Source: Pseudomonadota bacterium (lineage in GTDB: Bacteria; Desulfobacterota; Binatia; Binatales; Binataceae). Taken from it: a stretch of 64,000 bases of DNA. Positions within the stretch are counted from its first letter, which is position 1. Each line of letters opens with the position of its first letter. Positions 5,844 through 30,271 of this stretch are shown in pieces. The position numbers were made by a program, and so were the translations under genes. Where the stretch lies: assembly GCA_021324455.1 (NCBI GenBank), contig JAJPJA010000100.1:12068-76067 (forward strand). Reading direction: 5' to 3'. The notes below the pieces were generated by a model. The model worked only from the letters and a program-made list of their open reading frames with translations. It ran no database searches and had not been told where the DNA came from.

Positions 5844-6098
5844 GGCGAAAGGACCTGGCTTTGCTGACGGTGCGGCGTGTTGACAATCCTGCCCTGCCTC
5901 GCCGCGCGCACCGTTATGGGACAGGGCGGCTGCATCTTTGGCGCATCGGCGGTCAGTTGTGAAAGGGTGTTGCTGTAAGCGTATCAGGCACCCTCATCCT
6001 GACCCCTCTTTCACGAAAGAATGTGGGAGAGGCGAGCAGATGCGGGAGGGGGAGCGAAACGCTGCGGCTGAGGGAACCGAAAAATAACGGGGTGAGAC

Positions 6099-12681: not shown

Positions 12682-12980
12682 GATCCAAAACAAGTTGGGG
12701 CCCCAGCCCAACACCGTGGGCGGGGCCGCAGGTTCTCAGGCCGCGGCGCAAACACAAACCGTCGGGCGGAGCTCCCGCTCCCGCCCGACGCGTCAGATGT
12801 TACCAGAAATCGATTCCCAAGGCGTCCCCGGACGCGGCAGTTCAGCCCAAGGCGAGGATTTGGGTCAAAGCGTCAAGATGAGCGCAAGATCGAACGGCCG
12901 CGGACCAGGCAACCCGGGCTCGGTTGGAAAAGACCGCAAGCGGCGGCGCGATTACTTCGCGACCGGATCTGCCGTCGCGG

Positions 12981-16897: not shown

Positions 16898-17524
16898 CTA
16901 ACGGCGGCGGGTTCCGATCACCGCGAACACCGGGTCGGCATACGCGGTTTCGCACCGCCGCTCGATTGCTTCGATATCGTCGAATACGCCGCTGGCCGCG
17001 AAATATTCCCGCACCAACACCACCCGCTGCGATTCCGATGCCCGCTGCCAGACCCATACCGCCTTGGTCGGGAACATCCGGTTGGAAAAGCTCACCACCA
17101 ATGGCGCCCCGGGCCGCAGCACGCGTCCAATCTCGACGAAGACTTCCACCGGCTTTATCAGGTACTGGATCGACACCGTCAGCATCGCGCCGTCGAAGCT
17201 GGAGGCCTCAAAGGGCAGGCGCGGGTCGCGGTTGAGGTCATGCACGACTGCCTGGGTAAGCGCCGGATTGTCCTCCATCTCGGCGCGATTAAGTCCCAGT
17301 CCGGTGACCGACGCGGGCGCGAGCGAGGCCGGCAGGTGCGAGCGCCAACTGCTCATCAGGTCGAGCAGCGCGCCGCCGGGCGGCAGCTTTTGTTCGAAGA
17401 TCCGGCCGATAGCGGCGATCGCCCAATCGTCGATATGGACGACGAAGCGGGGAAAGCTGTAGAACAGCGCATCGTCGGTTTCGTCGATGCGGCGGAAAAA
17501 ATCCTCTGGCATCGGCTCTGCCAT
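16898..17524 (-). CDS. Class I SAM-dependent methyltransferase
   Basis: Methyltransf_11-like motifs (…ALLDLMSSW… GLGLN…; …RVLRPGAPLVVSF…). Confidence 0.75.
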   Translation of the reverse strand: MAEPMPEDFFRRIDETDDALFYSFPRFVVHIDDWAIAAIGRIFEQKLPPGGALLDLMSSWRSHLPASLAPASVTGLGLNRAEMEDNPALTQAVVHDLNRDPRLPFEASSFDGAMLTVSIQYLIKPVEVFVEIGRVLRPGAPLVVSFSNRMFPTKAVWVWQRASESQRVVLVREYFAASGVFDDIEAIERRCETAYADPVFAVIGTRRR

Positions 17525-17625
17525 AAGCGGCCTCAAGTTGGGAATTGTAATCACTTTGCGCCGCCGCGCGCAAAACATCGCCGGGTGCCGATTGCGGCTG
17601 GTTTGGGATTTACATCTGGCGTTTA

Positions 17626-18972
17626 ATGAATCGGGTGATGCGCGATTTGAAGTCTGTCCGCCGGCCCGCTTTCGCCGGTATCATTCCGGCCGGCGAGCCG
17701 GTCCGTCTTCCGATTCATTTCTTTGCCGTCGCGATTTTCTTTTTCGCCCTGGGTACGGCGGCGGCGCCGTGGGCCGCGGCCAGGCTGGCCGACTATTTCT
17801 ATCAGCTTTCGGTGCTCGCCTGGGTGCATACGTTTACCCTGGGATGGATCACGTCGGCGATCCTCGGCCTGATCTACTGCTACGTCCCCGCATTCGGCCG
17901 GCGCGGGCTCCGGTTCCCGCGGCTTGCCGCGCTGCAACTGGTGCTTTATTTCCTGGGCGCTTCCGGCGTGATTGCGCATTTCATGCTGGGCAGCTGGGAC
18001 GGGGTGTGGATGGCGGGCGCGGTGGTGGCGCTCAGCGTTGTCCTGTTCGCGCTCAATGTGGTTCCCGCCCTCGCCCCCGACTTCGGCCGCGGCACCGCCG
18101 AAACAGGTCTGCTGCTGGGATTGTTTTTTCTTCTCTGCGCCAGTTCTTTGGGCACGATGCTCGCGTTCGACAAGGAACACAGCTTCATTCCCGGAACCCT
18201 GCTGCGCAACCTTTCCGCCCATGCGCATCTGGCGGCGATCGGATGGATTGCGATGGCGGTGTGCGGCGTTTCCTATCGCCTGAGCAGCGCGGCGGAATCA
18301 AGGCCAACGCCGCCGGGGATGCCCGCTGCGGCGATCGCGCAACTGTTCGCCCTGGCGGCCGCGGCGATGGTGTTATTTGCGGCGCTGATGGCGAGAATCG
18401 GCAATGTCGCCATCTGGACGGTGTTTACCGCGGCGGTGCTGATGCTATGGCTTGCGATTTTCCAGAGGCGCATCAGAGTACTCCACACGCCGGCCCTGTG
18501 GACAACGTTCCACGCCCTGGCGGCGGTAGTTTCGCTGGTACTGGTGTTGATTGCCGGAATCTGGCTGGCGGTTGCGGGTGCCGGCGGCGCTTTCGGCGCG
18601 CATCTGGCCTGCGCTTACGGGCTGCTTGGCCTGCTCGGCTTTGCCGGCAATTTTATTATCGCCCTGTCGTACCATCTGTTCTCCGGTTTCGTGGCGCGAG
18701 TGCGTTCCGCTCTGGGATGGCCCCATCTGAGCCGTGCTGAGTTGTCGGTCGACGGCGGACGGCCGCTGGCGTTCTGGGGCCTCAATGCCGGGATACTGAT
18801 GATGGCGGCCGGCCTGCTCGCGGATCGGGTCGAAATCGCGCAGGTGGGGGGAGTGCTGATTGCAATCGCGGGCCTGGTTTACAGCGCCGCGATGGCGTGG
18901 ACGCTCAGCTTTGCCTATCGCCGTTCGAGCCCCGAAGCGCCCGGGCGCCTGCTGAGCGCGGCACAGGATTGA
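17626..18972 (+). CDS. Polytopic (about 12 TM) membrane protein with conserved intramembrane His; possibly NnrS-like
   Basis: 448 aa almost entirely hydrophobic helices, several His in TM segments; family assignment tentative. Confidence 0.55.
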   Translation: MNRVMRDLKSVRRPAFAGIIPAGEPVRLPIHFFAVAIFFFALGTAAAPWAAARLADYFYQLSVLAWVHTFTLGWITSAILGLIYCYVPAFGRRGLRFPRLAALQLVLYFLGASGVIAHFMLGSWDGVWMAGAVVALSVVLFALNVVPALAPDFGRGTAETGLLLGLFFLLCASSLGTMLAFDKEHSFIPGTLLRNLSAHAHLAAIGWIAMAVCGVSYRLSSAAESRPTPPGMPAAAIAQLFALAAAAMVLFAALMARIGNVAIWTVFTAAVLMLWLAIFQRRIRVLHTPALWTTFHALAAVVSLVLVLIAGIWLAVAGAGGAFGAHLACAYGLLGLLGFAGNFIIALSYHLFSGFVARVRSALGWPHLSRAELSVDGGRPLAFWGLNAGILMMAAGLLADRVEIAQVGGVLIAIAGLVYSAAMAWTLSFAYRRSSPEAPGRLLSAAQD

Positions 18973-19049
18973 GTGGTTTAATCCGCGCCGCCGCGCCGCT
19001 AAGCTTAACTTGGGACTTTTCCACAACCGGCAACCGAGATTCGATTGGC

Positions 19050-20168
19050 ATGAAAATCCTCATCATAGGCGCCGGTATAATCGGCAATTCGATCGCGTGG
19101 CGGATGGCTCGCGCCGGCGCCGACGTTACTATCGTGGAGCGCGGCCGGGCCGGACAGGAGGCCTCGTGGGCCGCGGCCGGCATGATCGCGCCGCAGGCGG
19201 AAGCCGAAGGGCCGGGGCCCTTCCTGCGCTTTTGCGTCGAAGCCAAAAACGCCTTCGAGACGATTCTGCCCGAGCTGATCGCGCAAAGCGGCATCGATCC
19301 CGAGTATGACAAAGGCAGCGGCGTGCTGTATGTCGCGCTCAACGAGGCCGATCGCGCCGAACTGGCGGCGCGCGCCGCGTGGCAGCGCGAGGCCGGTTTG
19401 CAGGTCGAGGAAATCGGCGGCGAACGGGCGCGCCAAATCACTCCGGCGTTGTCGCCCAAAGTGATCCACGCGCTCTACATGCCCGACGAAAACCGCGTCG
19501 AAAACCGGCAGCTTACCCAGGCCTTTCTGATCGCGGCGCTGAAAGCCGGTGCGCGACTGATCGAGGACAGCCGCGTCGACGCGATCGAGACCCGCGGCGG
19601 CAGATTCTCCGGCCTGCGCCTGCAGGGCGGGGAACTGATCGAAGCAGACGCGGCGGTCAATGCCGCCGGATCATGGGCCAGTGTGATTCGCGGCACCGAA
19701 GCCGACCACGTCCGGCTGCATCCGGTGCGCGGCCAAATCGTATGTTTTCAGGCGCGGCCCAACCTGGTCGGTCCGTCGATCTTCTCTTTGCGCGGCTACG
19801 CCGTGCCGCGGCGCGACGGCCGTGTCCTGGCCGGATCGACGCGCGAGATGGCGCGCTGGAGCAAGGACGTGACGCTGGAGGGGATGGAGAGTATTGTGCG
19901 CGCCGCCAAAGACATGCTGCCGGCGCTGGCCACGATGCGTTTTCGCGAAGCGTGGGCGGGTCTGCGTCCGGCCACGGCGGATTTTCTGCCGGTATTGGGG
20001 CCCTCTCCGTCGATTCCCGGCCTGTATTACGCCACCGGCCATTTTCGCAGCGGAATCCTGCTGGCCGCGATTACCGGCCGCGTGCTGGAGGCGATGATTA
20101 CCGGAGGCAAGCCCTGCACCGACGTCACGCCATTTTCAGCGGCACGATTCATGCCCTCAGCAAAATAG
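19050..20168 (+). CDS. thiO: Glycine oxidase ThiO-like FAD-dependent oxidoreductase
   Basis: MKILIIGAGIIGNSIAW (FAD GxGxxG) and …SWAAAGMIAPQAEAEG… ThiO/DAO signature. Confidence 0.8.
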   Translation: MKILIIGAGIIGNSIAWRMARAGADVTIVERGRAGQEASWAAAGMIAPQAEAEGPGPFLRFCVEAKNAFETILPELIAQSGIDPEYDKGSGVLYVALNEADRAELAARAAWQREAGLQVEEIGGERARQITPALSPKVIHALYMPDENRVENRQLTQAFLIAALKAGARLIEDSRVDAIETRGGRFSGLRLQGGELIEADAAVNAAGSWASVIRGTEADHVRLHPVRGQIVCFQARPNLVGPSIFSLRGYAVPRRDGRVLAGSTREMARWSKDVTLEGMESIVRAAKDMLPALATMRFREAWAGLRPATADFLPVLGPSPSIPGLYYATGHFRSGILLAAITGRVLEAMITGGKPCTDVTPFSAARFMPSAK

Positions 20169-20176
20169 GACCAGCA

Positions 20177-20530
20177 ATGCGAGTACTTGGCCTCGTCAAA
20201 GACCTGATGTTCCGTTCCCGAATCGACGCCGTGTGCGAAGCGCTCGGCTTCGAAGTCGCCTATGTGTCGGTGCCCGCGCTGTTGGCCCAACGATGCGGCC
20301 AGACGCAGCCGTCGGTGGTTTTGGTGGATTTGTCGGAGCGCGCATTCGATCCTCAACAGACGATGAGCACGCTGCGCAGCTGCGCGGCAGGCGCGCAGAT
20401 CATAGGGTTCGCCTCGCACGTGGATCTGAAATCTCTGGACGGCGCCCGCCAGGCCGGCTTCACCCGCGTCCTGTCGCGCCAGGAATTCGCCGCCCAGCTT
20501 CCCTCGCTCCTGCGCACCGCCCGCGATTGA
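20177..20530 (+). CDS. Small receiver-like (CheY-fold-like) hypothetical protein, 117 aa
   Basis: ATG 9 nt after thiO stop; …VVLVDLSE… and …IIGFASHVD… resemble beta-alpha receiver strands but acidic pocket is incomplete. Confidence 0.4.
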   Translation: MRVLGLVKDLMFRSRIDAVCEALGFEVAYVSVPALLAQRCGQTQPSVVLVDLSERAFDPQQTMSTLRSCAAGAQIIGFASHVDLKSLDGARQAGFTRVLSRQEFAAQLPSLLRTARD

Positions 20531-20593
20531 CTCTCCCGGTCTGATCCGTCTGCTGAATTCCCCCGGCAGTCCGCGTTTCGGCGGCGAGGAAAT

Positions 20594-23500
20594 TCATCCC
20601 GGCACACGATGCGCGGCTGCCCGGGACCGGGCGCGGGCCGGGACCGGACCGGGCAGGCCGTCGTAGCGCAGGCTGCGGCCGTCGGAATGAAACCGCATCG
20701 CGGCCAATTCGCTGACGCGCGCGGAGCTGAGCGCCGGCTCGCCGTCGACGGTATCCAGTCTGAGCCGCGGCCGCAGTTTCAGGAGGGCGGTGACTGCGGC
20801 GCTGAAGCGCGTGGAATCCATCTCCCGCAGGCAGATCAAATCGCGTCCCGCCAGGCCCATTATCGGCCCTCCGCCCGCGATTACGATTACGTTGGAGGGC
20901 TCGCGCGCGATACCGCATCCGGGCAGCGCCGCGCCGAACGGATTGGCAGGGTCGATCGCGCTGAGCGCGGCGAGATGGTCCGGCGCCGCCGTCCGCGCCG
21001 CGCGCAGCATCTCGACCGCCTGCGGCAGCGCATACTGCTCGCCCGATAAGGAACGCACGAAGTAGCCGCGCCGGATGGTGCCGGCGTACTCCAGACGCCG
21101 CAAGGCAAACAGCAGATCCGACCAGTTGACGCCCTCCTCGGCCGCCATTACCTCGCGCGTCAGGACGCCGTGGCGGCGCAGCAGCGTCATCGCCAGTTCA
21201 CGTTCCCGCTCCACCCCGGGCTGAGTCTGAAGGCCGCCGCCGATCGCGACCCAGCGGCCGCCCAGGCTGGATTTGAGCCGCGCGCGCAAACCGGCGTCGT
21301 AGCGGCTCAGCTTGCGATCGGGTGTGGAAGCCAAAGCCGCGGACGGATCGGGAATGCCGGCCAGCAGCCGCAGCGGAGCAAAGCCGTCGTTGGTGGACAA
21401 GCCGGCGGCGGCCAGGCTCCACAACGTGCGCAGAACGTCGCGATCCGAAAGACCGGCGCGCTGCGCGATCTGATCCAGGTAAAGCGCACCGCCTTCACGC
21501 AGGATTTTCAGTACAAGTTGTTCTTTGACGTCATCCGGAGCGGGGGCCTCGTTGCCCGATCCGATCCAACCCTGTGCGCGCGGCATAAACGCGACGCGAG
21601 AAGGAATCTCGGCGCTCCCATCGCGGCGCGGCCCCGCCATCCACATTATCCGTCCGCTCAGACACAGCAGGTCGAGATATTCGGGGCGGTAATCCGGAAT
21701 GCGGGCGGGAAGGATCGCGCGTTCCCACAACTCCGTATCCAGCGCCAAACCGCTCAGCTGCTCCAGCACGGCGGCGGCGCCATCGGCGCCCGGCGGCAAA
21801 TCCGCGCCGCCAATATGATGCCATCGGAGCAGGAAAGCGGTGTACTCGCGATCCTCGCAGGGCTCGACCTCGGCGCGAATCTTTTCCAGGGTCAGGCGAT
21901 GGATGCGTTCCAAGTTGTAGCGGTCGCACCAGCTCTCGCCGGCGTCGACGAAGCGGCCGCGGAATACGGCGCCCTTTGCTTCCAGCGCAGCCAGGCAGCT
22001 CTCCGTCTGCGCCTGGCCAAACCCCAGCCGCGCGGCGACTGCGGACGCCGTGACCGGGCCCGAGGTGCGCAGCATACGCCGCACCAGTTCCAGGCGGGCG
22101 GCGCCGGCCTCCGGCGCGCTCTCGGTTGGCGCCGCAATCGCGGAGGAGGTCGAGGCGCCGGAATAAACGGCGTGAAACAGCGCGGCGTCCTCCGCCGCGA
22201 TCCACAGCGGGTTGTGCCGATGAGGCAGACGGATAGAGACGATGCGCGAAGTATCGGCGAGCATGCGGGTAAGTGCGGCGCCGGCGGCCGCACGCTGCGC
22301 GATTTCGTCTTCTTCCAGCGCGCCGTGCGATCGGATCAATTCATACAGTTCGTCGGCGTCGCGCGCCCTGCGTCCGCCCGCGATACCGGAGGCTTCGGCG
22401 GCGACCCGCGCGACAGCCTCGCGCGCCAGCATCTCCGAGACATCCTCGCTGCGCAGGACATCTTCGGCCATCCCGCGATTCATCGAGACCGAGCGGCTGC
22501 GCCGGTTGGCGCGCTCGCCGTCATCGAGGAAGGAATAATCCCACGCCAGCAGCAGGCGCTGGGCGAACACCGAGGGCGCTATGGAATCGACCGCGATCGT
22601 CCGCACGCGGCCGCGCTCGATTCCCTCGATCAGCGCGGTCAGCCGTTTGATGTCGGCGGATTCCTCAAGGCATTCGCGGATGGTTTCCTGAACGATAAAG
22701 TGCTCCGGTATCTCGACCTGCGGCGGCTTGTTGTCGAAGCAGGCCTGCTGCTGGGGGAACAGCGCAATCGTCAGGTCCTGCGAGCGCAGGCGCTGGATCC
22801 AAGCCGGCACTTTGCGCCCCCTGGAATTGCGCATCACGCTCAGCGCGCGCGTGGCCACGTGGCGAAAGCGCACCTCAAACATCGGCGCCGCCAGCACGGC
22901 CTGGGTCAGGCTGTCGCGCAGCGTGCGTGAATTCAGAAAGCTGAACACTTCTTCGAGCGCAAAGCTATGGCGCGAATTCAAGGCCAGCAGCACGCCGTCG
23001 TCGGTGGCTGACGCCTGGATCTCAAAATTGAACGACTGGCAAAGGCGCTTGCGCAGTGCCAGTCCGAAACCGCGGTTGAGCCGGATGCCGAGCGGCGAAT
23101 GCAGCACGATCTGGGTGCCGCCCAGACCGTCGAAGAAACGCTCGGCGACAATCGTGCGGTGGTCGGGAATCGCGCCCAGGGCGTTCAATCCGCGCCGCAC
23201 GTAATCGACCGCCTGCGCCGCCGCGGAAGGTTCGATCGCGCATTGGTCGACCAGAAATCGAGCGGCCGTGCCGGGGTCGGAGAGCCGCCGCGCGATCTCG
23301 CGGCGCAAATCATTGACCTCCTGCGACAGCGCCGGCGTGCGGCCCGCCGCCTCCGCCATCCAGAACGGCAGCGTCGGTGCCATCCCGGGCGCCGGTTCGA
23401 CCATCAGGCGGCCGCGCGAAATGCGCTGGATCTGCCACGGCATCGAGCCCAAAGCGAAAATATCGCCGCGCGAGGACTCCTGGGCGAAGTCTTCCTCGAC

Positions 23501-25084
23501 ATCGCCGATCTTGCGCTGCTGCGATTCGATCACGACGTCGTAGTTGCCGGCTTCAGGAATCGTTCCGCCCGAGGTGATAGCGGCCAACCTTGCGCCCCGG
23601 CGCGGCCTGATCCTGCCGCCGATGCGATCGTAAAAGATTTTGGGAGACGCGCCCTGGATCCGCTGGGGCAACTCCGCCGCCATCTGGTCGAGCAGGCGGC
23701 GGAGTTCGGGCGCGTCAAGCGCGGCGAAATTGTACGCTCCGCGCAGCGTGCGCAGAATTTCGGCTTCGGTGATCTCGCCCTCTTCCGCCGCCATCGCCAC
23801 GATCTGTTGGGCGGCGACGTCCATACATCCGCTGGGAATCTCCACCTGGTCCAGCCGCGCGCTGCCAATCGCGCGCACCGCCGCGCCGCATTCGATCAGG
23901 TCGTCCAGCGTCATCGCGAAAAAGCGCCCCTTGGGCGTCTGTCCCAGCGCGTGGCCGGAGCGGCCGATGCGCTGAATGGCGGCCGAGATCGATTTGGGCG
24001 AATCGATCTGGCAGACCAGATCGACCGCGCCGACGTCGATCCCCAGTTCCAGCGACGCGGTGGCGACGATCGCGCGCAGCTCTCCGCGTTTAAGCCGCTG
24101 CTCCGCCGCCAGACGCTCGGCGCGGGCAAGGCTGCCGTGATGCGCCATCACGGCGTCCGCGCCCACACGCTTCTGCAGCGCCAAAGCGACCCGCTCGGCC
24201 CATCGGCGGCTCAACGTGAAGACCAGCGTTGTGCGATGCTGCCCGATCAGTTCCGCGATCCGATCGTAAGTCGCTTCCCAATGCGAATGAGTCGCGAGCG
24301 GGCCCAATTCGGGTCCGGGAGCGAGCACCTGCAGGTCAAGCTCGCGCGGTCCGTCGCCGGCGCGGACGATGCGGCATGGCCGTTGGGTCCGCTCGCCGCC
24401 GCCCTCGACTTCGGCGCCGGTGAGAAAGCGGCCCAGCTCCTCGATCGGGCTGAGCGTGGCGGAGAGGCCGATGCGCGCCGGGCGGACGCCGGTGCGCGAT
24501 TTGACCATCCTCTCCAAACGCTCCAAAGTAACGGCAAGGTGCGCGCCGCGCTTGTTGCCGGCCAGCGCATGCAGCTCGTCGACGATCACCCATCGCACCG
24601 CCTGCAGCTTTTCGCGGAAGCGGCTCGTGGTCAGCAGGATGAACAGCGACTCGGGTGTGGTGACCAGAATATGCGGCGGCCGCCGCAGCATCGCGCTGCG
24701 CTCGGCCGCGGGCGTATCTCCCGTACGCAGGCCGGCGCGAATGGGTGCCAGGGCGATTGCGGCCGCGCAGGCGGCCGCGCGCACTCCGCCCAGCGGCTCC
24801 TCGAGGTTGAGTCTGATGTCGTTGGCGAGGGCCTTCAGCGGCGAGACATAGAGTACGGAAACCTGATCGGGAAGTACGCCGGATTGCGCTTCGACCACCA
24901 GCTGGTTTATCGACCACAGAAAAGCGGCCAAAGTTTTGCCGCTGCCGGTCGGCGCGCACAGCAAAACATCGTGGCCGCCGCCGATCAGGGGCCATCCGGC
25001 TTCCTGGATAGCCGCCGCGCGGCCGAAGCGGCCCTCAAACCAGGCGCGCACGATCGGATGAAATACGGATACCGCGGCACTCAC
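20594..25084 (-). CDS. lhr: Large ATP-dependent helicase Lhr (SF2 DEAD/DEAH, 1496 aa)
   Basis: Walker A LLCAPTGSGKTLAAF, DEAD-like VIVDELHAL, helicase C and extended Lhr-core plus long C-terminal extension. Confidence 0.9.
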   Translation of the reverse strand: MSAAVSVFHPIVRAWFEGRFGRAAAIQEAGWPLIGGGHDVLLCAPTGSGKTLAAFLWSINQLVVEAQSGVLPDQVSVLYVSPLKALANDIRLNLEEPLGGVRAAACAAAIALAPIRAGLRTGDTPAAERSAMLRRPPHILVTTPESLFILLTTSRFREKLQAVRWVIVDELHALAGNKRGAHLAVTLERLERMVKSRTGVRPARIGLSATLSPIEELGRFLTGAEVEGGGERTQRPCRIVRAGDGPRELDLQVLAPGPELGPLATHSHWEATYDRIAELIGQHRTTLVFTLSRRWAERVALALQKRVGADAVMAHHGSLARAERLAAEQRLKRGELRAIVATASLELGIDVGAVDLVCQIDSPKSISAAIQRIGRSGHALGQTPKGRFFAMTLDDLIECGAAVRAIGSARLDQVEIPSGCMDVAAQQIVAMAAEEGEITEAEILRTLRGAYNFAALDAPELRRLLDQMAAELPQRIQGASPKIFYDRIGGRIRPRRGARLAAITSGGTIPEAGNYDVVIESQQRKIGDVEEDFAQESSRGDIFALGSMPWQIQRISRGRLMVEPAPGMAPTLPFWMAEAAGRTPALSQEVNDLRREIARRLSDPGTAARFLVDQCAIEPSAAAQAVDYVRRGLNALGAIPDHRTIVAERFFDGLGGTQIVLHSPLGIRLNRGFGLALRKRLCQSFNFEIQASATDDGVLLALNSRHSFALEEVFSFLNSRTLRDSLTQAVLAAPMFEVRFRHVATRALSVMRNSRGRKVPAWIQRLRSQDLTIALFPQQQACFDNKPPQVEIPEHFIVQETIRECLEESADIKRLTALIEGIERGRVRTIAVDSIAPSVFAQRLLLAWDYSFLDDGERANRRSRSVSMNRGMAEDVLRSEDVSEMLAREAVARVAAEASGIAGGRRARDADELYELIRSHGALEEDEIAQRAAAGAALTRMLADTSRIVSIRLPHRHNPLWIAAEDAALFHAVYSGASTSSAIAAPTESAPEAGAARLELVRRMLRTSGPVTASAVAARLGFGQAQTESCLAALEAKGAVFRGRFVDAGESWCDRYNLERIHRLTLEKIRAEVEPCEDREYTAFLLRWHHIGGADLPPGADGAAAVLEQLSGLALDTELWERAILPARIPDYRPEYLDLLCLSGRIMWMAGPRRDGSAEIPSRVAFMPRAQGWIGSGNEAPAPDDVKEQLVLKILREGGALYLDQIAQRAGLSDRDVLRTLWSLAAAGLSTNDGFAPLRLLAGIPDPSAALASTPDRKLSRYDAGLRARLKSSLGGRWVAIGGGLQTQPGVERERELAMTLLRRHGVLTREVMAAEEGVNWSDLLFALRRLEYAGTIRRGYFVRSLSGEQYALPQAVEMLRAARTAAPDHLAALSAIDPANPFGAALPGCGIAREPSNVIVIAGGGPIMGLAGRDLICLREMDSTRFSAAVTALLKLRPRLRLDTVDGEPALSSARVSELAAMRFHSDGRSLRYDGLPGPVPARARSRAAAHRVPG

Positions 25085-25156
25085 GTTATTGTTATATCAC
25101 GGCCGCGCCTTGCGTTTGAGGCAGACCGCGCGGAGCTTGAGTCCGGCCCTGTCTGC

Positions 25157-26293
25157 ATGTGGATGAAAAAAAACGCGGCGTATGGCTCGCGCCGCCGCGC
25201 GGCGGCTAAGCTCAACACTGCTTTGAGAATTTCGCCGACAGTGCTGGCAGCCGGCGCCGCCGCGGCGTTGGCGTTGATTGCGTGGCGCGCGCCGATGGCG
25301 CTGGCCGCGGCGCCGCTTTCTCTGGGCCAGCAGGACGAGCTGCTCCGTCCGCCGCTGAAGGACGGCCAGCCGATTCCGGTTGCGATTGCGATCCACGTAA
25401 TCAATCTGACCGACATCGATGAGGTCCTGCAGCGCTTCCATGTGATGTTCTACCTGTTTGTGCAATGGCAGGACTCGCGTCTGGCCTTTACGCCGAGTCG
25501 GCCGGGCGAGCGGTTTCATGTTTATGCCGTCGATCAGGTGTGGCATCCGCGGCTGGATTTCATCAATGCGGTTGGCGCGCGCAGTGCGGGCGAATCGTCG
25601 CTGCGGGTGGAGCCCGGCGGAACGGTGCTTTACGCGGAACGCGGCGAGGCGCAGTTGAGCACGCGCTTCCATCTGCGGCGCTTTCCCTTTGACCGCCAGG
25701 CGCTGCAGATCATTGTGCATCCGTTCGTGGCGCAGTCCCATCTGCTCGCCTTCCGCGCCAGCCAGGAACATACCTGGTTGAGCGCCGAACAGACGGTGTA
25801 TTCCTCGCTGGCGGATTGGGACCTGGTCGGCATCCGGACCGAGCACGACCATATCTCGCTGTCCAAAGTGGGCGAGATCCCCGAAGCGCATTTCGAGATC
25901 TTGGTGCGGCGCAAGTACGCTTTTTATCTGTGGAAGATTTTTCTCCCGCTCCTGCTGATGGTGATACTGTCGTGGACCGTGTACTGGATCGATACCAGGG
26001 ATTTGAGCAGCCAGGTTCAAATCTCCATTACCACCATCCTGACCGTAATCGCGTTCGCGTTTTCGATCTCGCTCAGTCTGCCCAAGGTGCCCTACCTGAC
26101 CTTCATCGACGCGTTTTTCCTGGATTGTCTGGTGTTCGTGTTTTTCACCGCGATCGAGATGACCACGGTGCACGTGACCGGACGAACCCGGCGGGCCGCG
26201 TTTGGGGTGAAGATCCGGCGCGTCAGCAGGGTCGCGGTGCCGATTGCGTTCGTCGCCAGCAATCTGATTATCGCGGTTTATTATTTCGGCTGA
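25157..26293 (+). CDS. Prokaryotic pentameric ligand-gated ion channel (pLGIC / Cys-loop receptor family homologue)
   Basis: Signal peptide, ~200-aa beta-rich extracellular domain, then M1 (YLWKIFLPLLLMVILSWTVYWI), M2 pore helix (SQVQISITTILTVIAFAFSISLSLP), M3, very short M3-M4 loop and M4 (VAVPIAFVASNLIIAVYYFG); this is the real 3' part of the long 23099..26293 ORF. Confidence 0.8.
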   Translation: MWMKKNAAYGSRRRAAAKLNTALRISPTVLAAGAAAALALIAWRAPMALAAAPLSLGQQDELLRPPLKDGQPIPVAIAIHVINLTDIDEVLQRFHVMFYLFVQWQDSRLAFTPSRPGERFHVYAVDQVWHPRLDFINAVGARSAGESSLRVEPGGTVLYAERGEAQLSTRFHLRRFPFDRQALQIIVHPFVAQSHLLAFRASQEHTWLSAEQTVYSSLADWDLVGIRTEHDHISLSKVGEIPEAHFEILVRRKYAFYLWKIFLPLLLMVILSWTVYWIDTRDLSSQVQISITTILTVIAFAFSISLSLPKVPYLTFIDAFFLDCLVFVFFTAIEMTTVHVTGRTRRAAFGVKIRRVSRVAVPIAFVASNLIIAVYYFG

Positions 26294-26437
26294 GCCGGGC
26301 GGCGCAGCGCGGCGGGATTTCCGGTGCCGCCGGCATTTCATTGTTGAACCGCGATCGGGCTGATAATTTCTAATCAAGCTCAGCCGCTTTCGAGCACACC
26401 AGGCCCGGCGCTGGTACGGCGGCCGTTACTTTGACGC

Positions 26438-29400
26438 ATGCTGATGAATTCTGCTGCGAACAGCGGCCGCGCCGCGCCGACCGGCTACGCATCCGGCGAG
26501 CCGCCCGGCGGCGAGATGTCGATCCGCATGCGCGAGTTCGACTGGTCCACCACGCCGCTGGGTCCGATGCATACATGGTCGCCGGCGCTGGCAACCACGC
26601 TGCGGATTGTATTGGCGAACCGGTTTCCACACATACTGTGGTGGGGGCCCCGATACATACAGCTTTACAACGACGCCTATATTCCCTATCCGGGCGCCAA
26701 GCATCCGCATCAGGCGCTGGGGCGTCCGGCCGCCGAATGCTGGTCCGAGATCTGGCACATTATCGGGCCGCCGATCGATAAGCCCTTTCGCGGCGGGCCG
26801 GCCGCGTGGGACGACGATATCTGCCTGGTGATACACCGGCACGGCTTCGCCGAAGAAACCCACTTCACCATCGCCTACAGTCCGGTGCCCGACGAAACCG
26901 CACCGGGCGGAATCGGCGGCGTGCTCGGCACCGTTTATGAAATCACGGAAAAGGTCGTGGGCGAGCGGCGCGTTGTGGCGCTGCGCGACCTGAGCGCGCG
27001 GGTCGGCGACGCCAAGACCGCCGAAGAGGCCTGTGCGATCGCGGCGGCCACCTTGTCGGCGCACAACAAGGACCTTCCTTTCGTTCTGCTCTACCTGCTC
27101 GATGCCGATGAGAAGCGCGCGCGGCTGGCTGGCGCGGCCGGTGCCGCAGCCGGCGATGACCTCAGTCCGGCGCAGCTCGACCTCGAAAATCAGGCGCGGG
27201 GATGGCCTTTGGCCCAGGCGGCGCGAACCGCATCCATGCAGGTGGTTGAGAATCTCGACGCCAGATTTCGACAGCTACCGCCGGGACCGTGGCCGGATCC
27301 GCCGCATACCGCCGTGGTCGTACCGATTCCATCCAACAAGCCGCATGAGACCGCGGGTTTCATGATTGCCGGGGTAAGCTCGCGTCTGCGGCTGGACCAG
27401 TATTACCGCGATTTCTTCAACCTGGTGCGGACCCAGGTGGCGACCGCGATCGCCAACGCGCGCGCCTACGAAGAGGAACGCCAGCGGGCCGAGGCCCTGG
27501 CCGAACTGGACCGCGCCAAGACGCTGTTTTTCAGCAACGTCAGCCACGAGTTTCGCACCCCGCTCACCCTGATGCTCGGACCGATCGAAGATATCCTATC
27601 CGAAGACGGCGAGCTGTCGGCGGATAACCGCCAGCGGCTGCAGGTCGCGCATCGCAATTCGCTGCGCCTGCTGAAGCTGGTCAACACCCTGCTGGACTTT
27701 TCGCGCATCGAGGCCGGCCGCATCCAGGCCTCGTATGAGGCGGTGGATCTGTCCGAGCTGACGGCGGAGCTGGCCAGCGTCTTCCGATCCGCAATCGAGC
27801 GGGCGGGCCTGCGGCTGACTGTCCGCTGCCAACCGTTGTCCGAGCCGGTGTATGTGGATCGGGAGATGTGGGAGAAGATTGTATTCAATCTGATCTCGAA
27901 CGCGTTCAAGTTCACCTTCGAAGGCGGGATTGAAATATCTCTGCGGCAGGCGGGCCGGGCCGTTGCGCTGTCGGTGCGGGATACCGGGACCGGTATTCCG
28001 GCATCCGAGGTCCCCCACATTTTCGAACGCTTTCACCGCGTCAGCAACGCCCATGGACGCACGTTCGAAGGCAGCGGCATCGGCCTGGCGCTGGTGCAGG
28101 AGCTGGTCAAACTTCACGGCGGCAGCGTGGCGGTGGAAAGCGAGCCGGGGGCCGGCAGCACCTTTACCGTGCGGATCCCGCTGGGCTGCGGTCATTTACC
28201 GGCCGACCGGATTGCGGCGCCGCGCACGCTCGCCTCCACCGGCTTGCGCGCCGAAGCCTATCTTCAGGAAGTGCTGGGATGGCTGGCGGACGCCCCGGCC
28301 GCGCGCACGGCACAAATCGAGGCGATGCCGCCGGCCGATGACGCGCAGCCGGAGCACAAGGCGCCGCGCGGCTCCCGTCCGCTCATACTTCTGGCCGACG
28401 ACAACGCCGACATGCGTTACTACGTCGAGCAGCTTCTAAAGGAGCGCTGCGAGGTCCGCGCCGCCGCCGACGGACGGGCGGCCTTGCGCGCCGCCCGCGA
28501 GCATCCTCCCGACCTGGTGCTGGCCGACGTGATGATGCCCGAACTGGACGGCTTCGCGCTGCTGCGGGAAATGCGCCGCGATCCGGTACTGAAGACTGTG
28601 CCGGTAATCGTCCTGTCGGCGCGGGCAGGGGAGGAGGCGCGGGTTGAAGGACTGGAAGCGGGCGCCGACGATTACCTGATCAAGCCGTTCAGCGCACGGG
28701 AGCTGCTTGCCCGCGTCGGCGCGCATCTGGAGATGGGGCGGGTGCGCCGTGATGCGGCCCGCATGGAGCGGGAACTTCGAGCCGAAGCGCAAGCCGCCAG
28801 GGATCAGCTCGAAGGAGTCCTGGCCGCAATCACCGATCAGTTTCTGGCCTGCGACAGCGGCTGGCGATGTGTTTACGCCAACAATCGCGTCACCGAATTT
28901 ACCGGGCTTGCCCGGAATCAACTGTTGGGCCACAAACTCTGGGACATCTTTCCCGCAGTCGCCGGCACAGAGTTCGAACGTCAACTGCGCCGGGCGATGG
29001 CGGAGCGCAAGCCCACGCGGTTTGAATTCTATTTCCCGCCGCGCAAGCGATGGTTCGAAAACCACGTCTATCCTTCCAGTTCCGGCTTGACCCTCCTTTC
29101 GGCGGATATTACCGATCGCAAACGGGTGGAGGAGCGGCTGCGCGAAGCGGACCGCCAGAAGGACGAATTTCTCGCGATGCTGGCCCATGAACTGCGCAAT
29201 CCGCTGGCCGCGCTGTCCGCCGCCAACGAACTGCTGTTGCGCATCGTTCCGCCGCAGCCTTCCACTCAGGCCGCGCTGGCGATGGTCAAGCGTCAGGTGG
29301 GGCACCTTTCACGCCTCATTGACGATCTGCTCGACGTGTCCAGAATCACGCTGGGACGGATCGAACTGCGTCCGGCGCCGGTCAGTATCCAGAGCGTGCT

Positions 29401-30271
29401 GGTGCAAGCCATCGAAACCGCGCAGCCCTGGATCGATCGGCGCGGGCACCAGCTTGTTGTGGATGCCGGCAACGGGGACCGGCTTTGGGTAAAGGCGGAC
29501 CCCTCGCGACTGGTGCAATGCCTGACCAACCTGATCAACAACGCGGCGAAATACACGCCCAGCGGCGGCCGGATTGCCGTGCTGGTTGCCGAGGACGGCA
29601 ACCAGGTGAAAATCCAGGTCGAGGATAACGGTATCGGAATAGCGCCGGAGTTCCTGCCCTACGTGTTTGACCTGTTTTCGCAAAGCCAGCGCTCGCTCGA
29701 CCGCACCCAGAGCGGCCTCGGCATCGGACTGACTTTAGTCAAGCGCCTGATCGATCTTCACGGCGGAAAGGTCGAAGCCGCCAGCGCTGGCCTCTGGCGC
29801 GGCGCCACCTTTACGATATATCTGCCCAAAATTGAACCGCAGCAGACGCAGGATATCTGCAAAAATATGCCTTCAGCCAAAGCGGGCACCAAACGCGTGC
29901 TCATCGTGGACGATAACCGGGATGCCGCCGATGCGCTGTCGGAGCTTCTGATCCTGGAAGGGCATGAAGCGCAGTCCGTATACGGCGCGTTGGCCGCAAT
30001 CGACAAGGCGGCGCAGATTTGTCCGGACGCCGTCCTGCTCGATATCGGGCTGCCGCAGATAGACGGCTACGAACTTGCGCGGATGCTGCATGAGGTGCCC
30101 GCATTAAAGAACGTTACTCTGATCGCGGTCACCGGCTATGGCCAGGCCAGAGACAAAGAGTCGGATCGGGCCCGGGTATTCGATCATTATCTGGTAAAGC
30201 CGGTGGACCTCGACAAGTTGTCTGAAATACTGGCCTCACTGCCGCCAAAAGGCGGCGAACCAGAAAATTGA
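26438..30271 (+). CDS. Cytoplasmic tandem hybrid sensor kinase: PAS-GAF-HisKA/HATPase-REC-PAS-HisKA/HATPase-REC (1277 aa)
   Basis: Two H-boxes (SHEFRTPL; AHELRNPL), two HATPase_c G-boxes (DTGTGIP; DNGIGIA), two receiver domains with phospho-Asp (LVLADVMMPELDG; VLLDIGLPQIDG); no TM segments. Confidence 0.9.
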   Translation: MLMNSAANSGRAAPTGYASGEPPGGEMSIRMREFDWSTTPLGPMHTWSPALATTLRIVLANRFPHILWWGPRYIQLYNDAYIPYPGAKHPHQALGRPAAECWSEIWHIIGPPIDKPFRGGPAAWDDDICLVIHRHGFAEETHFTIAYSPVPDETAPGGIGGVLGTVYEITEKVVGERRVVALRDLSARVGDAKTAEEACAIAAATLSAHNKDLPFVLLYLLDADEKRARLAGAAGAAAGDDLSPAQLDLENQARGWPLAQAARTASMQVVENLDARFRQLPPGPWPDPPHTAVVVPIPSNKPHETAGFMIAGVSSRLRLDQYYRDFFNLVRTQVATAIANARAYEEERQRAEALAELDRAKTLFFSNVSHEFRTPLTLMLGPIEDILSEDGELSADNRQRLQVAHRNSLRLLKLVNTLLDFSRIEAGRIQASYEAVDLSELTAELASVFRSAIERAGLRLTVRCQPLSEPVYVDREMWEKIVFNLISNAFKFTFEGGIEISLRQAGRAVALSVRDTGTGIPASEVPHIFERFHRVSNAHGRTFEGSGIGLALVQELVKLHGGSVAVESEPGAGSTFTVRIPLGCGHLPADRIAAPRTLASTGLRAEAYLQEVLGWLADAPAARTAQIEAMPPADDAQPEHKAPRGSRPLILLADDNADMRYYVEQLLKERCEVRAAADGRAALRAAREHPPDLVLADVMMPELDGFALLREMRRDPVLKTVPVIVLSARAGEEARVEGLEAGADDYLIKPFSARELLARVGAHLEMGRVRRDAARMERELRAEAQAARDQLEGVLAAITDQFLACDSGWRCVYANNRVTEFTGLARNQLLGHKLWDIFPAVAGTEFERQLRRAMAERKPTRFEFYFPPRKRWFENHVYPSSSGLTLLSADITDRKRVEERLREADRQKDEFLAMLAHELRNPLAALSAANELLLRIVPPQPSTQAALAMVKRQVGHLSRLIDDLLDVSRITLGRIELRPAPVSIQSVLVQAIETAQPWIDRRGHQLVVDAGNGDRLWVKADPSRLVQCLTNLINNAAKYTPSGGRIAVLVAEDGNQVKIQVEDNGIGIAPEFLPYVFDLFSQSQRSLDRTQSGLGIGLTLVKRLIDLHGGKVEAASAGLWRGATFTIYLPKIEPQQTQDICKNMPSAKAGTKRVLIVDDNRDAADALSELLILEGHEAQSVYGALAAIDKAAQICPDAVLLDIGLPQIDGYELARMLHEVPALKNVTLIAVTGYGQARDKESDRARVFDHYLVKPVDLDKLSEILASLPPKGGEPEN

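What the first reader, a model, noticed from the sequence alone, without database searches (positions are those of the whole stretch)
25157..26293. Bacterial pentameric ligand-gated ion channel (Cys-loop receptor homologue)
The protein has the full pLGIC layout: a signal peptide, an extracellular beta-sandwich-sized domain, M1-M2-M3 helices, a minimal M3-M4 loop, and M4 ending at the C-terminus. This is the architecture of GLIC/ELIC-type channels, which are sporadic in bacteria and whose native ligands are mostly unknown. The gene starts only 72 bp from the divergent lhr start and lies 145 bp upstream of a giant cytoplasmic hybrid kinase.
Basis: partly seen in the sequence, partly recalled or inferred. 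Interest (0 to 1): 0.6.

Follow-up and report, generated by a model that had tools for sequence, protein, structure and literature searches.

The report
Bacterial pentameric ligand-gated ion channel gene
The gene is a genuine bacterial relative of nerve-cell neurotransmitter receptors, from an uncultured soil bacterium (Binataceae), but it is one more uncharacterised member of a large known family, and what opens it is still unknown.

Summary
Confirmed. [quoted passage not shown] Both Pfam pLGIC domains pass their cut-offs. GLIC matches full-length at E~1e-46 (31% identity). An AlphaFold model (pLDDT 87.5) shows a beta-sandwich plus four helices and matches GLIC and GABA-A structures.

The pore-lining residues are the same as ELIC's, but the acidic -1'/-2' selectivity residue is absent; the filter reads D-L-S-S-Q. 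That motif is common among the nearest prokaryotic relatives, so it is not unusual.

GLIC's proton-sensor residues are mostly absent (E35 is Q92). The loop-B acid that holds the agonist amine in ELIC and GlyR is an invariant His. The extracellular domain is unusually His-rich (5.7% against a 1.8% mean). My best guess is proton or anion sensing through histidines, and this is inferred only.

The host lineage is Binataceae, where the family is common, multi-copy and vertically syntenic. This copy sits head-to-head with lhr in orthologues. The downstream hybrid kinase is not conserved. The main paralogue lies just downstream of fumC.

The start codon is ambiguous. Verdict: a new member of a known kind, of modest interest.

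The parts
25157..26293 (+). pLGIC (Pro-loop receptor) subunit gene, 378 aa plus stop
   Evidence: ORF and translation. Pfam LBD and TM domains above cut-off. GLIC at E~1e-46. 31% identity to GLIC and 28% to ELIC.
25157..25306 (+). N-terminal signal-peptide region (aa 1-50, A48-L49-A50 cleavage motif). Start codon ambiguous: in-frame alternatives at 25163 ATG, 25223 TTG, 25241 GTG.
   Evidence: Hydropathy peak at aa 23-52. Low-confidence helix at aa 27-43. Orthologue alignment shows a conserved non-coding extended -10-like box where window codons 12-19 lie, with downstream TTG starts.
25325..25915 (+). Periplasmic extracellular (ligand-binding) domain, aa 57-253, beta-sandwich, 11 histidines
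   Evidence: Pfam Neur_chan_LBD covers aa 60-254. AF2 strands at aa 73-252. His content 5.7% against a 1.8% mean in 128 representatives.
25682..25693 (+). Pro-loop (Cys-loop equivalent) motif F176-P177-F178-D179, without the flanking cysteines
   Evidence: P177 is invariant; F176, F178 and D179 are at least 90% conserved in 58 sequences. Aligns to GLIC YPFD and ELIC FPFD.
25718..25726 (+). Loop B H188-P189-F190. Aligns to ELIC E131-P132-F133 and GlyR E157-S158-F159.
   Evidence: Alignment mapping. H188 is His in 19 of 20 family members, and in 34/37 orthologues and 83/83 paralogues.
25916..25987 (+). M1 helix (aa 254-277) with conserved P264
   Evidence: AF2 helix, hydropathy, conservation.
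26003..26077 (+). M2 pore helix (aa 283-307): D282(-4') L S S Q286(0') ... Q288(2') T292(6') L295(9') A299(13') F302(16') S305(19')
   Evidence: Alignment to GLIC and ELIC. The 2'-19' pore-facing residues are identical to ELIC's. No acidic residue at -1'/-2'. Q at 0' occurs in 86 of 126 nearest representatives.
26096..26185 (+). M3 helix (aa 314-343), includes H339 (= GLIC H277)
   Evidence: AF2. H339 is invariant.
26195..26287 (+). M4 helix (aa 347-377), ending one residue before the C-terminus
   Evidence: AF2, hydropathy.
25085..25156 (.). Divergent intergenic region shared with lhr. On the minus strand it carries TGATATAAC (25099 to 25091), an extended -10-like box ending 6 nt before the lhr GTG.
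   Evidence: Sequence. The box is conserved in all 7 aligned loci. Promoter function is inferred only; the consensus scan found no -35/-10 pair.
20594..25084 (-). lhr (large helicase-related protein, 1496 aa), the conserved divergent neighbour of this pLGIC orthologue group (context)
   Evidence: Pfam DEAD, Helicase_C, WH_Lhr, DEAD_assoc and AlkZ-like. Divergent lhr is present at L001-4, L008-11, L013 and L075.
26438..30271 (+). Soluble double hybrid histidine kinase (1277 aa). Downstream neighbour, not conserved with the channel (context only).
   Evidence: Domains. No TM segment. No orthologous locus carries it.
18897..20168 (+). Glycine oxidase ThiO-like FAD oxidoreductase. Convergent downstream neighbour of the channel in most orthologous loci, here on the far side of lhr because the lhr|pLGIC pair is inverted (context).
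   Evidence: TIGR02352 at 315 bits against a cut-off of 250.8. Synteny.

Best explanation

Shown:
- The architecture is a cleavable N-terminal signal, a periplasmic beta-sandwich sensor domain, M1-M4, and almost no cytoplasmic loop.
- All the superfamily's gating hardware is present: the FPFD Pro-loop, the pre-M1 Arg R252, the M1 Pro P264, the M2-M3 'LPKVPY' loop, and the E89/D179/R252 triad corresponding to GLIC D32/D122/R192.
- The M2 pore lining is identical to the cation channel ELIC at 2', 6', 9', 13', 16' and 19'.

Inferred:
- Five copies assemble in the inner membrane. Paralogues exist in relatives, so mixed pentamers are possible.
- A periplasmic chemical cue acting on the extracellular domain opens a hydrophobic gate at L295 (9') and F302 (16').
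- Cations then flow down their gradient, with weak charge selection by the D282 (-4') ring, because the usual -1'/-2' Glu is missing.

My committed guess for the cue is protonation of extracellular histidines, possibly together with a small organic anion.
- The domain has 11 His, many at positions where relatives carry Arg.
- The loop-B acid that binds the agonist amine in ELIC and GlyR is an invariant His here.
- R150 and R162 line the same pocket region.
- The closest characterised homologue, GLIC, is proton-gated and binds carboxylates (the latter is my own knowledge).

The confidence of 0.85 applies to 'functional pLGIC channel subunit'. The cue sub-claim (protons or anions via histidines) stands at about 0.3, and cation selectivity at about 0.55.
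For: - Family and fold: Pfam LBD 79.3 bits and TM 46.7 bits, both above cut-off. GLIC full-length at E 1e-45 to 1e-47. 31% identity to GLIC and 28% to ELIC. AF2 pLDDT 87.5 with a beta-sandwich and 4 helices. Foldseek top hits are GLIC and GABA-A/RDL at E~1e-26.
- Purifying selection: M2 is nearly invariant across 120 homologues. W104, D106, R108, W129, P131, P177, W221, R252 and P309 are invariant in 58 sequences.
- Pore: the residues map to ELIC Q233, T237, L240, A244, F247 and S250.
- Cue: GlyR E157 and ELIC E131 align to H188, which is His in 19 of 20 family members. ECD His content is 5.7%, above all 128 cluster representatives (mean 1.8%, maximum 5.1%) and above the neighbouring window proteins (0.9-2.3%). 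His and Arg alternate at positions 80, 121, 130, 172, 188 and 245.
- Habitat: MAG titles of relatives point to peat, palsa and soil.
Against: - No experiment and no pentamer model supports assembly or conduction.
- GLIC's own proton-sensing and gating residues are mostly not conserved: E35 to Q92, E26 to N83, E222 to S284, H235 to V297 and E243 to S305 (with residue roles from PMC5760087). GLIC-style proton gating therefore cannot simply be transferred.
- His enrichment could instead reflect metal binding, or nothing functional.
- The loop C alignment is uncertain, so the pocket composition is only partly known.
- Selectivity cannot be read from the D-L-S-S-Q motif. Jaiteh et al. 2016 (PMC4795631) state that this region does not predict selectivity in prokaryotic pLGICs.
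- The ancestral promoter box is degenerate in the window, so expression in this genome is not assured.
Confidence: 0.85

Rival explanations
1. An ELIC-like channel gated by a small primary amine (GABA, cysteamine or a similar compound) bound in an aromatic box at the subunit interface.
For: Pore-lining residues are identical to ELIC's at 2'-19'. The loop B 'P-F' (P189-F190 = ELIC P132-F133) and the loop D aromatic (Y99 = ELIC Y38 = GlyR F63) are conserved.
Against: - The acidic residue that pairs with the agonist ammonium (ELIC E131, GlyR E157) is His188, and the only alternative seen is Arg.
- The ELIC loop C aromatics Y175 and F188 align to T228 and I241.
- The GlyR/GABA-A carboxylate clamp R65 aligns to F101.
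- The roles of the ELIC and GlyR residues are from my own knowledge, not tested here.
Confidence: 0.2
2. A metal-gated or metal-modulated channel, functionally like the vertebrate zinc-activated channel, that uses the His-rich extracellular domain to bind Zn2+, Cu2+ or Ni2+.
For: There are 11 His in the ECD, the highest fraction among 129 compared sequences. One 54%-identical paralogue (L005) sits between RND efflux pumps and a multicopper oxidase.
Against: - The His positions alternate with Arg, not with Cys, Asp or Glu, which argues for a positive-charge role rather than metal ligation.
- No metal-handling genes lie at the window locus or at orthologous loci.
- The single paralogue context is anecdotal.
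Confidence: 0.1
3. The channel is functionally coupled to a neighbouring gene: the downstream hybrid histidine kinase (as a signalling module), the divergent Lhr helicase, or the glycine oxidase ThiO (glycine as ligand).
For: - Only 72 bp separate it from lhr and 144 bp from the kinase.
- The lhr|pLGIC pair is conserved in 10 other loci (9 distinct places, since L001 and L009 cover the same ground), down to 47% channel identity, and stayed together through an inversion.
- ThiO is adjacent in 7 loci (6 distinct).
Against: - The kinase is absent from every orthologous locus.
- The lhr and ThiO linkage extends to further flanking genes (PNPOx, luciferase-like, methyltransferase). That is what ordinary vertical synteny within one family looks like.
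- It is broken in L012, and ThiO is missing in L004 and L011.
- lhr and the channel each have their own -10-like box.
- The GlyR glycine-binding Arg is absent.
- No riboswitch or other Rfam element lies nearby.
Confidence: 0.07
4. The gene is a decaying or silent copy in this genome, with its promoter lost and no longer making a channel.
For: The extended -10-like box conserved upstream of the orthologues is degenerate in the window, and the annotated N-terminus runs through it. No sigma-70-type promoter was found by scan.
Against: - The reading frame is intact over 378 codons, and all invariant family residues are present.
- GC3 of 0.78 matches the neighbouring genes.
- Identity to the nearest orthologues is 80% with no frameshifts.
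- The promoter scan requires a -35 box and is insensitive here.
Confidence: 0.05

Closest known systems
GLIC (Gloeobacter violaceus proton-gated pLGIC, e.g. PDB 3EAM/4HFI)
   Same: It is the best-scoring characterised relative: E~1e-46, 31% identity over aa 59-378. The compact layout is the same, with no N-terminal extra domain and a minimal M3-M4 loop. Shared residues include the Pro-loop, the D32/D122/R192-equivalent triad (E89/D179/R252), H277 (H339), E104 (E161) and R105 (R162).
   Different: - The key proton sensor E35 is Gln here. E26, E222 (the -2' selectivity Glu), H235 (11') and E243 are N, S, V and S.
- The M1-M2 loop is two residues longer.
- The pore is lined L9'/F16' rather than I9'/I16'.
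- The ECD has 11 His against 1 in GLIC.
ELIC (Dickeya/Erwinia amine-gated pLGIC, e.g. PDB 2VL0/2YN6)
   Same: The pore-facing M2 residues are identical (Q2', T6', L9', A13', F16', S19'). The loop B Pro-Phe and the loop D Tyr are shared. Overall identity is 28%.
   Different: - The -1' Glu (E230 in the 322-residue numbering used here) is Ser.
- The amine-pairing E131 is His.
- Loop C is shorter and lacks Y175 and F188 equivalents.
Eukaryotic anionic Cys-loop receptors (GlyR alpha1, GABA-A, RDL)
   Same: They share the fold (Foldseek E~1e-26, TM 0.60-0.72). The TMD is as similar to GlyR alpha1 (45/125 identical, via the GLIC-GlyR chimera 4X5T, the top PDB hit) as to GLIC (41/125).
   Different: - There is no Cys-loop disulfide.
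- There is no P-A-R anion filter.
- There is no long M3-M4 cytoplasmic domain.
- The glycine-binding R65 and E157 are F101 and H188.
fumC-linked Binataceae pLGIC paralogues (uncharacterised, 45-56% identical)
   Same: Same subfamily, with the same M2 core and the invariant H188, R162, R252 and H339. Same host lineage.
   Different: - They sit at a different conserved locus, directly downstream of class II fumarate hydratase. The modal gap is 6 bp, in 45 of 80 GTDB-species loci.
- They carry Arg instead of His at position 121 and no His at position 130.
- They have fewer ECD histidines, mean 4.7 against 8.2.
NCBIfam NF033918 LGIC_1 / TIGR00860 LIC
   Same: The match is significant over most of the length (E 5e-47 and 1.5e-50).
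   Different: Scores of 160.7 and 172.2 bits are far below the curated cut-offs of 500 and 280.2. It is not a member of those curated subfamilies.

Membership tests
pLGIC / Pro-loop receptor superfamily | Extracellular ligand-binding domain homologous to Neur_chan_LBD | tested here: met
   PF02931 at 79.3 bits against a cut-off of 26, aa 60-254.
pLGIC / Pro-loop receptor superfamily | Transmembrane channel domain homologous to Neur_chan_memb | tested here: met
   PF02932 at 46.7 bits against a cut-off of 28.1, aa 262-342. The GLIC alignment runs through M4 to the last residue.
pLGIC / Pro-loop receptor superfamily | Conserved proline at the tip of the beta6-beta7 (Pro/Cys) loop | tested here: met
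   F176-P177-F178-D179. P177 is invariant in 58 homologues. The feature is defined in PMC4795631.
pLGIC / Pro-loop receptor superfamily | Topology: N-terminal ECD outside, four TM helices, C-terminus after M4 | tested here: met
   AF2 helices at 254-277, 283-307, 314-343 and 347-377 follow a beta-sandwich. Hydropathy agrees. Fold match to GLIC and GABA-A.
pLGIC / Pro-loop receptor superfamily | Assembly as a pentamer around a central M2-lined pore | not testable with these tools
   Only single-chain prediction was available. Inferred from homology.
pLGIC / Pro-loop receptor superfamily | Agonist-gated ion conduction | not testable with these tools
   Needs electrophysiology or flux assays.
GLIC-type proton-gated channels | Proton-sensing and gating residues E35 (key sensor), E26, D32, D122, E222, H235, E243, H277 (PMC5760087) | tested here: not met
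   E35 to Q92, E26 to N83, E222 to S284, H235 to V297, E243 to S305. Only D32 (as E89), D122 (D179) and H277 (H339) are retained.
ELIC-type amine-gated channels | Aromatic box plus acidic residue for the agonist amine (Y38, E131, F133, Y175, F188; roles from my own knowledge) | tested here: not met
   Y99 and F190 are retained. E131 maps to H188, Y175 to T228 and F188 to I241. The loop C alignment is uncertain.
Eukaryotic Cys-loop receptors | Disulfide-forming Cys pair flanking the beta6-beta7 loop | tested here: not met
   There are no cysteines in the ECD. The loop reads LSTRFHLRRFPFDRQALQ.
Cation-selective pLGICs (classical signature) | Acidic residue at M2 -1'/-2' (the G-E-K/R type filter) | tested here: not met
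   S284-S285-Q286 at -2', -1' and 0'. The only acidic residue is D282 at -4'. The same neutral motif is common in the nearest relatives.
Anion-selective pLGICs (classical signature) | P(-2')-A(-1')-R(0') motif | tested here: not met
   The sequence is L-S-S-Q, aligned against GlyR A-P-A-R.
NCBIfam LGIC_1 (NF033918) and LIC (TIGR00860) | Score at or above the curated cut-off | tested here: not met
   160.7 bits against 500, and 172.2 bits against 280.2.

The most novel reading that the evidence does not exclude
This lhr-linked orthologue group may be a histidine-based sensor channel. In this reading, acid-soil Binataceae replaced fixed arginines of the extracellular domain (positions 80, 121, 130, 172, 188, 245) with titratable histidines. 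That would create a pLGIC gated near pH 5-7, or by protons plus an organic anion or a transition metal, through a mechanism unrelated to GLIC's Glu35. Binataceae would then use a small repertoire of such channels, including a fumC-coupled paralogue that might respond to C4-dicarboxylates, as periplasmic chemosensors. If so, this would give bacterial pLGICs a first physiological context.
Probability: 0.12. Interest if true: 0.55.

Novelty: new member of a known kind. Interest (0 to 1): 0.3.

Why it matters
No bacterial pLGIC has a known physiological role (PMC4795631), and only a handful have been characterised. This gene adds nothing new in architecture.

It does belong to a lineage where the family is not sporadic. 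In Binataceae it is multi-copy, vertically inherited and fixed at two conserved loci: divergent from lhr, and immediately downstream of fumC.

It also carries an unusual His-rich sensor domain with a His in place of the canonical amine-binding acid. Together these give concrete, cheap hypotheses for ligand screens (pH, carboxylates, metals). They also suggest a natural comparative system, orthologue against paralogue, for asking what bacterial pLGICs sense.

Tried and rejected
1. Kinase coupling. The hybrid kinase was searched for in 87 related loci and is not present at any orthologous locus. Rejected.
2. Glycine as ligand, prompted by the ThiO neighbour and the GlyR-like TMD. GlyR R65 and E157 map to F101 and H188. 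The ThiO linkage is part of general synteny and is broken in several loci. Rejected as unsupported.
3. A riboswitch or other cis-regulatory RNA near the gene. No Rfam match at gathering score across the window, and only chance-level hits in 16.5-30.5 kb.
4. Sigma-70 promoter and terminator scan of 24.9-26.6 kb. No promoter was found, and terminator-like hairpins were no more frequent than in shuffles.
5. 'The neutral selectivity filter is unusual'. Rejected: Q at 0' occurs in 86 of 126 nearest cluster representatives, and D/E at -4' in 57 of 126.
6. Exact-sequence contig look-up of the window protein: not on record. Cluster look-up gave no names or taxon. Taxon was inferred from related GTDB loci instead.
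8. Literature searches for pLGICs in Binatia/Binataceae and for natural concatenated pLGICs found nothing relevant.
9. Other pLGIC copies in the window: none (tblastn).
10. A Tat-type signal ('SRRRAAAK', aa 11-18). Considered and judged unlikely. The stretch is not conserved in orthologues and overlaps what is non-coding promoter-like DNA there.
Full report
**1. Observation**

Window 25157-26293 (+) is an uninterrupted 378-codon ORF ending in TGA. The same 378-aa protein exists as an NCBI gene call on an 80-kb contig (P0001, 100% identity). A longer antisense ORF overlaps it (25097-26377, minus strand). In a 64% GC window that is expected by chance. All homology lies on the + strand.

It is 72 bp to the divergent lhr GTG at 25084 and 144 bp (not 145) to the kinase ATG at 26438.

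**2. Identity**

- Pfam gives Neur_chan_LBD (79.3 bits, cut-off 26, aa 60-254) and Neur_chan_memb (46.7 bits, cut-off 28.1).
- Against PDB sequences, the top 60 hits are GLIC, GLIC mutants and GLIC chimeras, at E 1e-44 to 1.6e-47. The alignments run from aa ~57-60 to the last residue.
- BLASTP identity is 31% to GLIC and 28% to ELIC. ELIC and GlyR alpha1 were checked against PDB: ELIC is 100% identical to 2YN6, and GlyR alpha1 differs from 7MLY at one residue in 310. The GLIC numbering reproduces the published residue identities.
- NCBIfam's curated LGIC_1 and LIC models match but fall far below their cut-offs. It therefore belongs to the superfamily but to no curated subfamily.
- An AlphaFold2 model built from a 58-sequence alignment has mean pLDDT 87.5. 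It shows about ten strands (aa 73-252) followed by helices 254-277, 283-307, 314-343 and 347-377.
- Foldseek against PDB returns GLIC and GABA-A/RDL/GlyR-type receptors at E~1e-26 and TM 0.55-0.72.
- Hydropathy gives the same four TM segments plus an N-terminal hydrophobic stretch at aa 23-52.

**3. Anatomy in detail**

Gating hardware:
- The Pro-loop is F176-P177-F178-D179, without flanking cysteines.
- The pre-M1 Arg (R252), the M1 Pro (P264) and the M2-M3 'LPKVPY' loop are conserved.
- The GLIC D32/D122/R192 triad is E89/D179/R252.

Pore:
- M2 reads D282(-4')-L-S-S-Q286(0')-V-Q288(2')-...-T292(6')-...-L295(9')-...-A299(13')-...-F302(16')-...-S305(19').
- The 2'-19' pore-facing residues equal ELIC Q233/T237/L240/A244/F247/S250.
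- GLIC's E222 (-2') and ELIC's E230 (-1') are both Ser here. The anion-type P-A-R motif is also absent.
- I first took this neutral filter for a peculiarity. Among the 126 nearest 50%-cluster representatives, however, Q at 0' occurs in 86, and D/E at -4' in 57. It is the norm for this prokaryotic clade.
- Jaiteh et al. note that this region does not predict selectivity in prokaryotic pLGICs (PMC4795631).
- I infer cation permeability from the ELIC-identical lining and the -4' acidic ring, at about 0.55.

**4. What might gate it**

GLIC-style proton gating cannot simply be transferred:
- GLIC's residues implicated in proton activation are E26, D32, E35, D122, E222, H235, E243 and H277, with E35 the key sensor (PMC5760087).
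- They map to N83, E89, Q92, D179, S284, V297, S305 and H339. Five of eight are lost, including E35.

ELIC-style or GlyR-style amine binding is only partly supported:
- The loop D aromatic (Y99) and the loop B Pro-Phe (P189-F190) are kept.
- The acid that pairs with the agonist ammonium (ELIC E131, GlyR E157) is H188. It is His in 19 of 20 family members, and in 34/37 orthologues and 83/83 paralogues.
- The GlyR/GABA-A carboxylate clamp R65 is F101.
- Loop C aromatics are not recovered, although that alignment is weak.

The extracellular domain is strikingly His-rich:
- It has 11 His in 194 residues (5.7%).
- That is above all 128 representatives (mean 1.8%, maximum 5.1%), above GLIC (1 His) and ELIC (2 His), and above the neighbouring window proteins (0.9-2.3%).
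- The orthologue group averages 8.2 His and the paralogues 4.7.
- At positions 80, 121, 130, 172, 188 and 245 the alternative residue across relatives is Arg.

A His that alternates with Arg suggests a positive charge that has been made titratable. Together with the invariant R162 (GLIC R105) and R150, this gives a basic, titratable pocket. My best guess is therefore proton sensing through histidines, possibly with an organic anion. This is inference only, at about 0.3.

**5. Lineage and abundance**

- The word-indexed protein search returned 269 homologues at E<=1e-10. Those from sources that give names are Binataceae or Binatus MAGs.
- A scan of one genome per GTDB species found 239 relatives carrying the family's M1 motif. 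The best 80 are almost all Binataceae, 'uncultured delta proteobacterium' or Binatus MAGs from soil, peat and palsa, plus a few Acidobacteriota.
- Ten genomes contribute two loci each among those 80, so the family is multi-copy.
- The exhaustive representative search found 11,606 clusters at E<=1e-3, 3,634 at E<=1e-10 and 388 at E<=1e-30. The superfamily is large in metagenomes.

**6. Genomic context**

The window locus type:
- In the orthologue clade (67-80% identity), lhr lies divergently upstream at L001-L004, L008-L011 and L013. It also does so at L075, where the channel is only 47% identical. L001 and L009 cover the same ground, as do L002 and L003.
- A glycine oxidase ThiO-like gene (TIGR02352, 315 bits against a cut-off of 250.8) lies convergently downstream in seven of these loci.
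- Flanking PNPOx, luciferase-like and methyltransferase genes are also shared.
- The linkage is broken in L012, L004 and L011. It therefore reads as ordinary vertical synteny.
- In the window the two-gene lhr|pLGIC block is inverted relative to the methyltransferase, 446-aa, ThiO and 117-aa block.
- The hybrid kinase, P450 and methylase that now follow the channel are found at no other orthologous locus. The kinase association is incidental.

The paralogue locus:
- Clustering neighbour ORFs over all 87 loci shows that the main paralogue group sits directly after class II fumarate hydratase (TIGR00979, 797 bits). This holds in 45 of 80 GTDB loci, co-oriented, with a modal gap of 6 bp.
- Binataceae thus keep at least two fixed pLGIC loci.

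**7. Regulation and start codon**

- The aligned lhr|pLGIC intergenic regions show two conserved boxes of the TGnTATAAN type.
- One sits on the minus strand, ending 6-7 nt before the lhr start codon, in all 7 aligned loci (window 25099 to 25091). This suggests a leaderless lhr mRNA.
- The other sits on the plus strand (CTGCTATAAGG, 6 of 7), about 30 nt before a conserved TTG start of the channel.
- In the window the second box is degenerate (GGCGGCTAAGC) and lies inside the annotated CDS. The true start may therefore be 25157, 25163, 25223 (TTG, giving the signal peptide MRISPTVLAAG...ALA) or 25241.
- The mature protein is unaffected. Promoter function is inferred from sequence only. The consensus scan, which requires a -35 box, found none. 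No Rfam element is present.

**8. Comparison and novelty**

- It works like GLIC and ELIC and is a member of the pLGIC/Pro-loop superfamily: all testable defining features were met.
- It fails the residue-level tests for GLIC-type proton sensing, ELIC-type amine binding, Cys-loop receptors, the classical cation and anion filters, and the curated NCBIfam subfamilies.
- None of this places it outside the known kind. It is a new, uncharacterised member.
- I found no paper on pLGICs in Binatia.
- Interest is modest (0.3). The identification is solid but unsurprising. The added value lies in the His-rich sensor domain, the His-for-Glu swap in loop B, and the evidence that Binataceae hold the family at stable, multi-copy loci, one of them tightly coupled to fumC.

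Noticed in passing
Related loci L007, L018-L087 (45 of 80 GTDB-species loci); e.g. L007 4533-5993 fumC, 6001-7062 pLGIC: The main Binataceae pLGIC paralogue group (45-56% identical to the window protein) lies directly downstream of class II fumarate hydratase (TIGR00979, 797 bits). It is co-oriented with a modal gap of 6 bp, which looks like an operon and hints at a link to C4-dicarboxylate metabolism. A carboxyltransferase and MutS2 follow.
   Followed up: partly
Proteins P0158 (2451 aa) and P0243 (2697 aa) from the representative search; also P0174 and P0215 (two repeats): Each large protein carries five tandem pLGIC-subunit-like repeats after an N-terminal region of about 700 aa (in P0158 the domains are at 688-939, 1027-1337, 1440-1649, 1731-1968 and 2087-2336). 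They may be natural single-chain pentamers, or fused gene models. The source organism is unknown, and no literature was found.
   Followed up: partly
window 25085-25215 and the aligned regions of L002, L004, L008, L010, L011, L013: There are two conserved back-to-back extended -10-like boxes (TGnTATAAN). One ends 6-7 nt before the lhr start codon in all 7 aligned loci, suggesting a leaderless lhr mRNA. The other lies upstream of a TTG start of the channel in 6 of 7 and is degenerate in the window, where it falls inside the annotated CDS.
   Followed up: partly
window 16904-26293 compared with L001, L002, L008, L009, L013, L075: The two-gene lhr|pLGIC block is inverted in the window relative to the conserved block of methyltransferase, 446-aa protein, ThiO and 117-aa protein. 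The PNPOx and luciferase-like genes that flank lhr elsewhere are replaced on the channel's 3' side by a hybrid kinase, a P450 and a DNA methylase.
   Followed up: yes
window 18897-20168 (+): An FAD oxidoreductase scores as glycine oxidase ThiO (TIGR02352, 315 bits against a cut-off of 250.8), with no thiS, thiG or other thiamin genes adjacent. Its start overlaps the end of the upstream 448-aa ORF (17626-18972) by about 75 bp, so one of the two starts is probably mis-set.
   Followed up: no
window 26438-30271 (+): A soluble 1277-aa kinase has two complete HisKA-HATPase-REC units in tandem, the first preceded by a GAF domain and the second by a PAS domain. It has no TM segment. The first ~200 aa have no Pfam match.
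   Followed up: no
L014 1729-2688 and 2896-3852 (Terriglobales MAG): A tandem pair of pLGIC genes, 57% and 53% identical to the window protein, suggests possible heteromeric channels in some bacteria.
   Followed up: no
L005 (paralogue P0039, 54% identical): This paralogue lies between two RND efflux pump genes (ACR_tran) and a multicopper oxidase, a metal-resistance-like neighbourhood.
   Followed up: no
L001 7475-7996 and L009 (same position): In two orthologous loci a 173-aa ORF with no Pfam match is inserted between lhr and the channel, expanding the intergenic region from about 240 bp to about 990 bp.
   Followed up: no
window 9118-12714 (-) and 20594-25084 (-): Two large DNA-repair helicases lie within 12 kb of each other: Mfd/TRCF (1197 aa) and Lhr with an AlkZ-like C-terminal region. 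UppP (BacA) and an EamA transporter lie between them.
   Followed up: no
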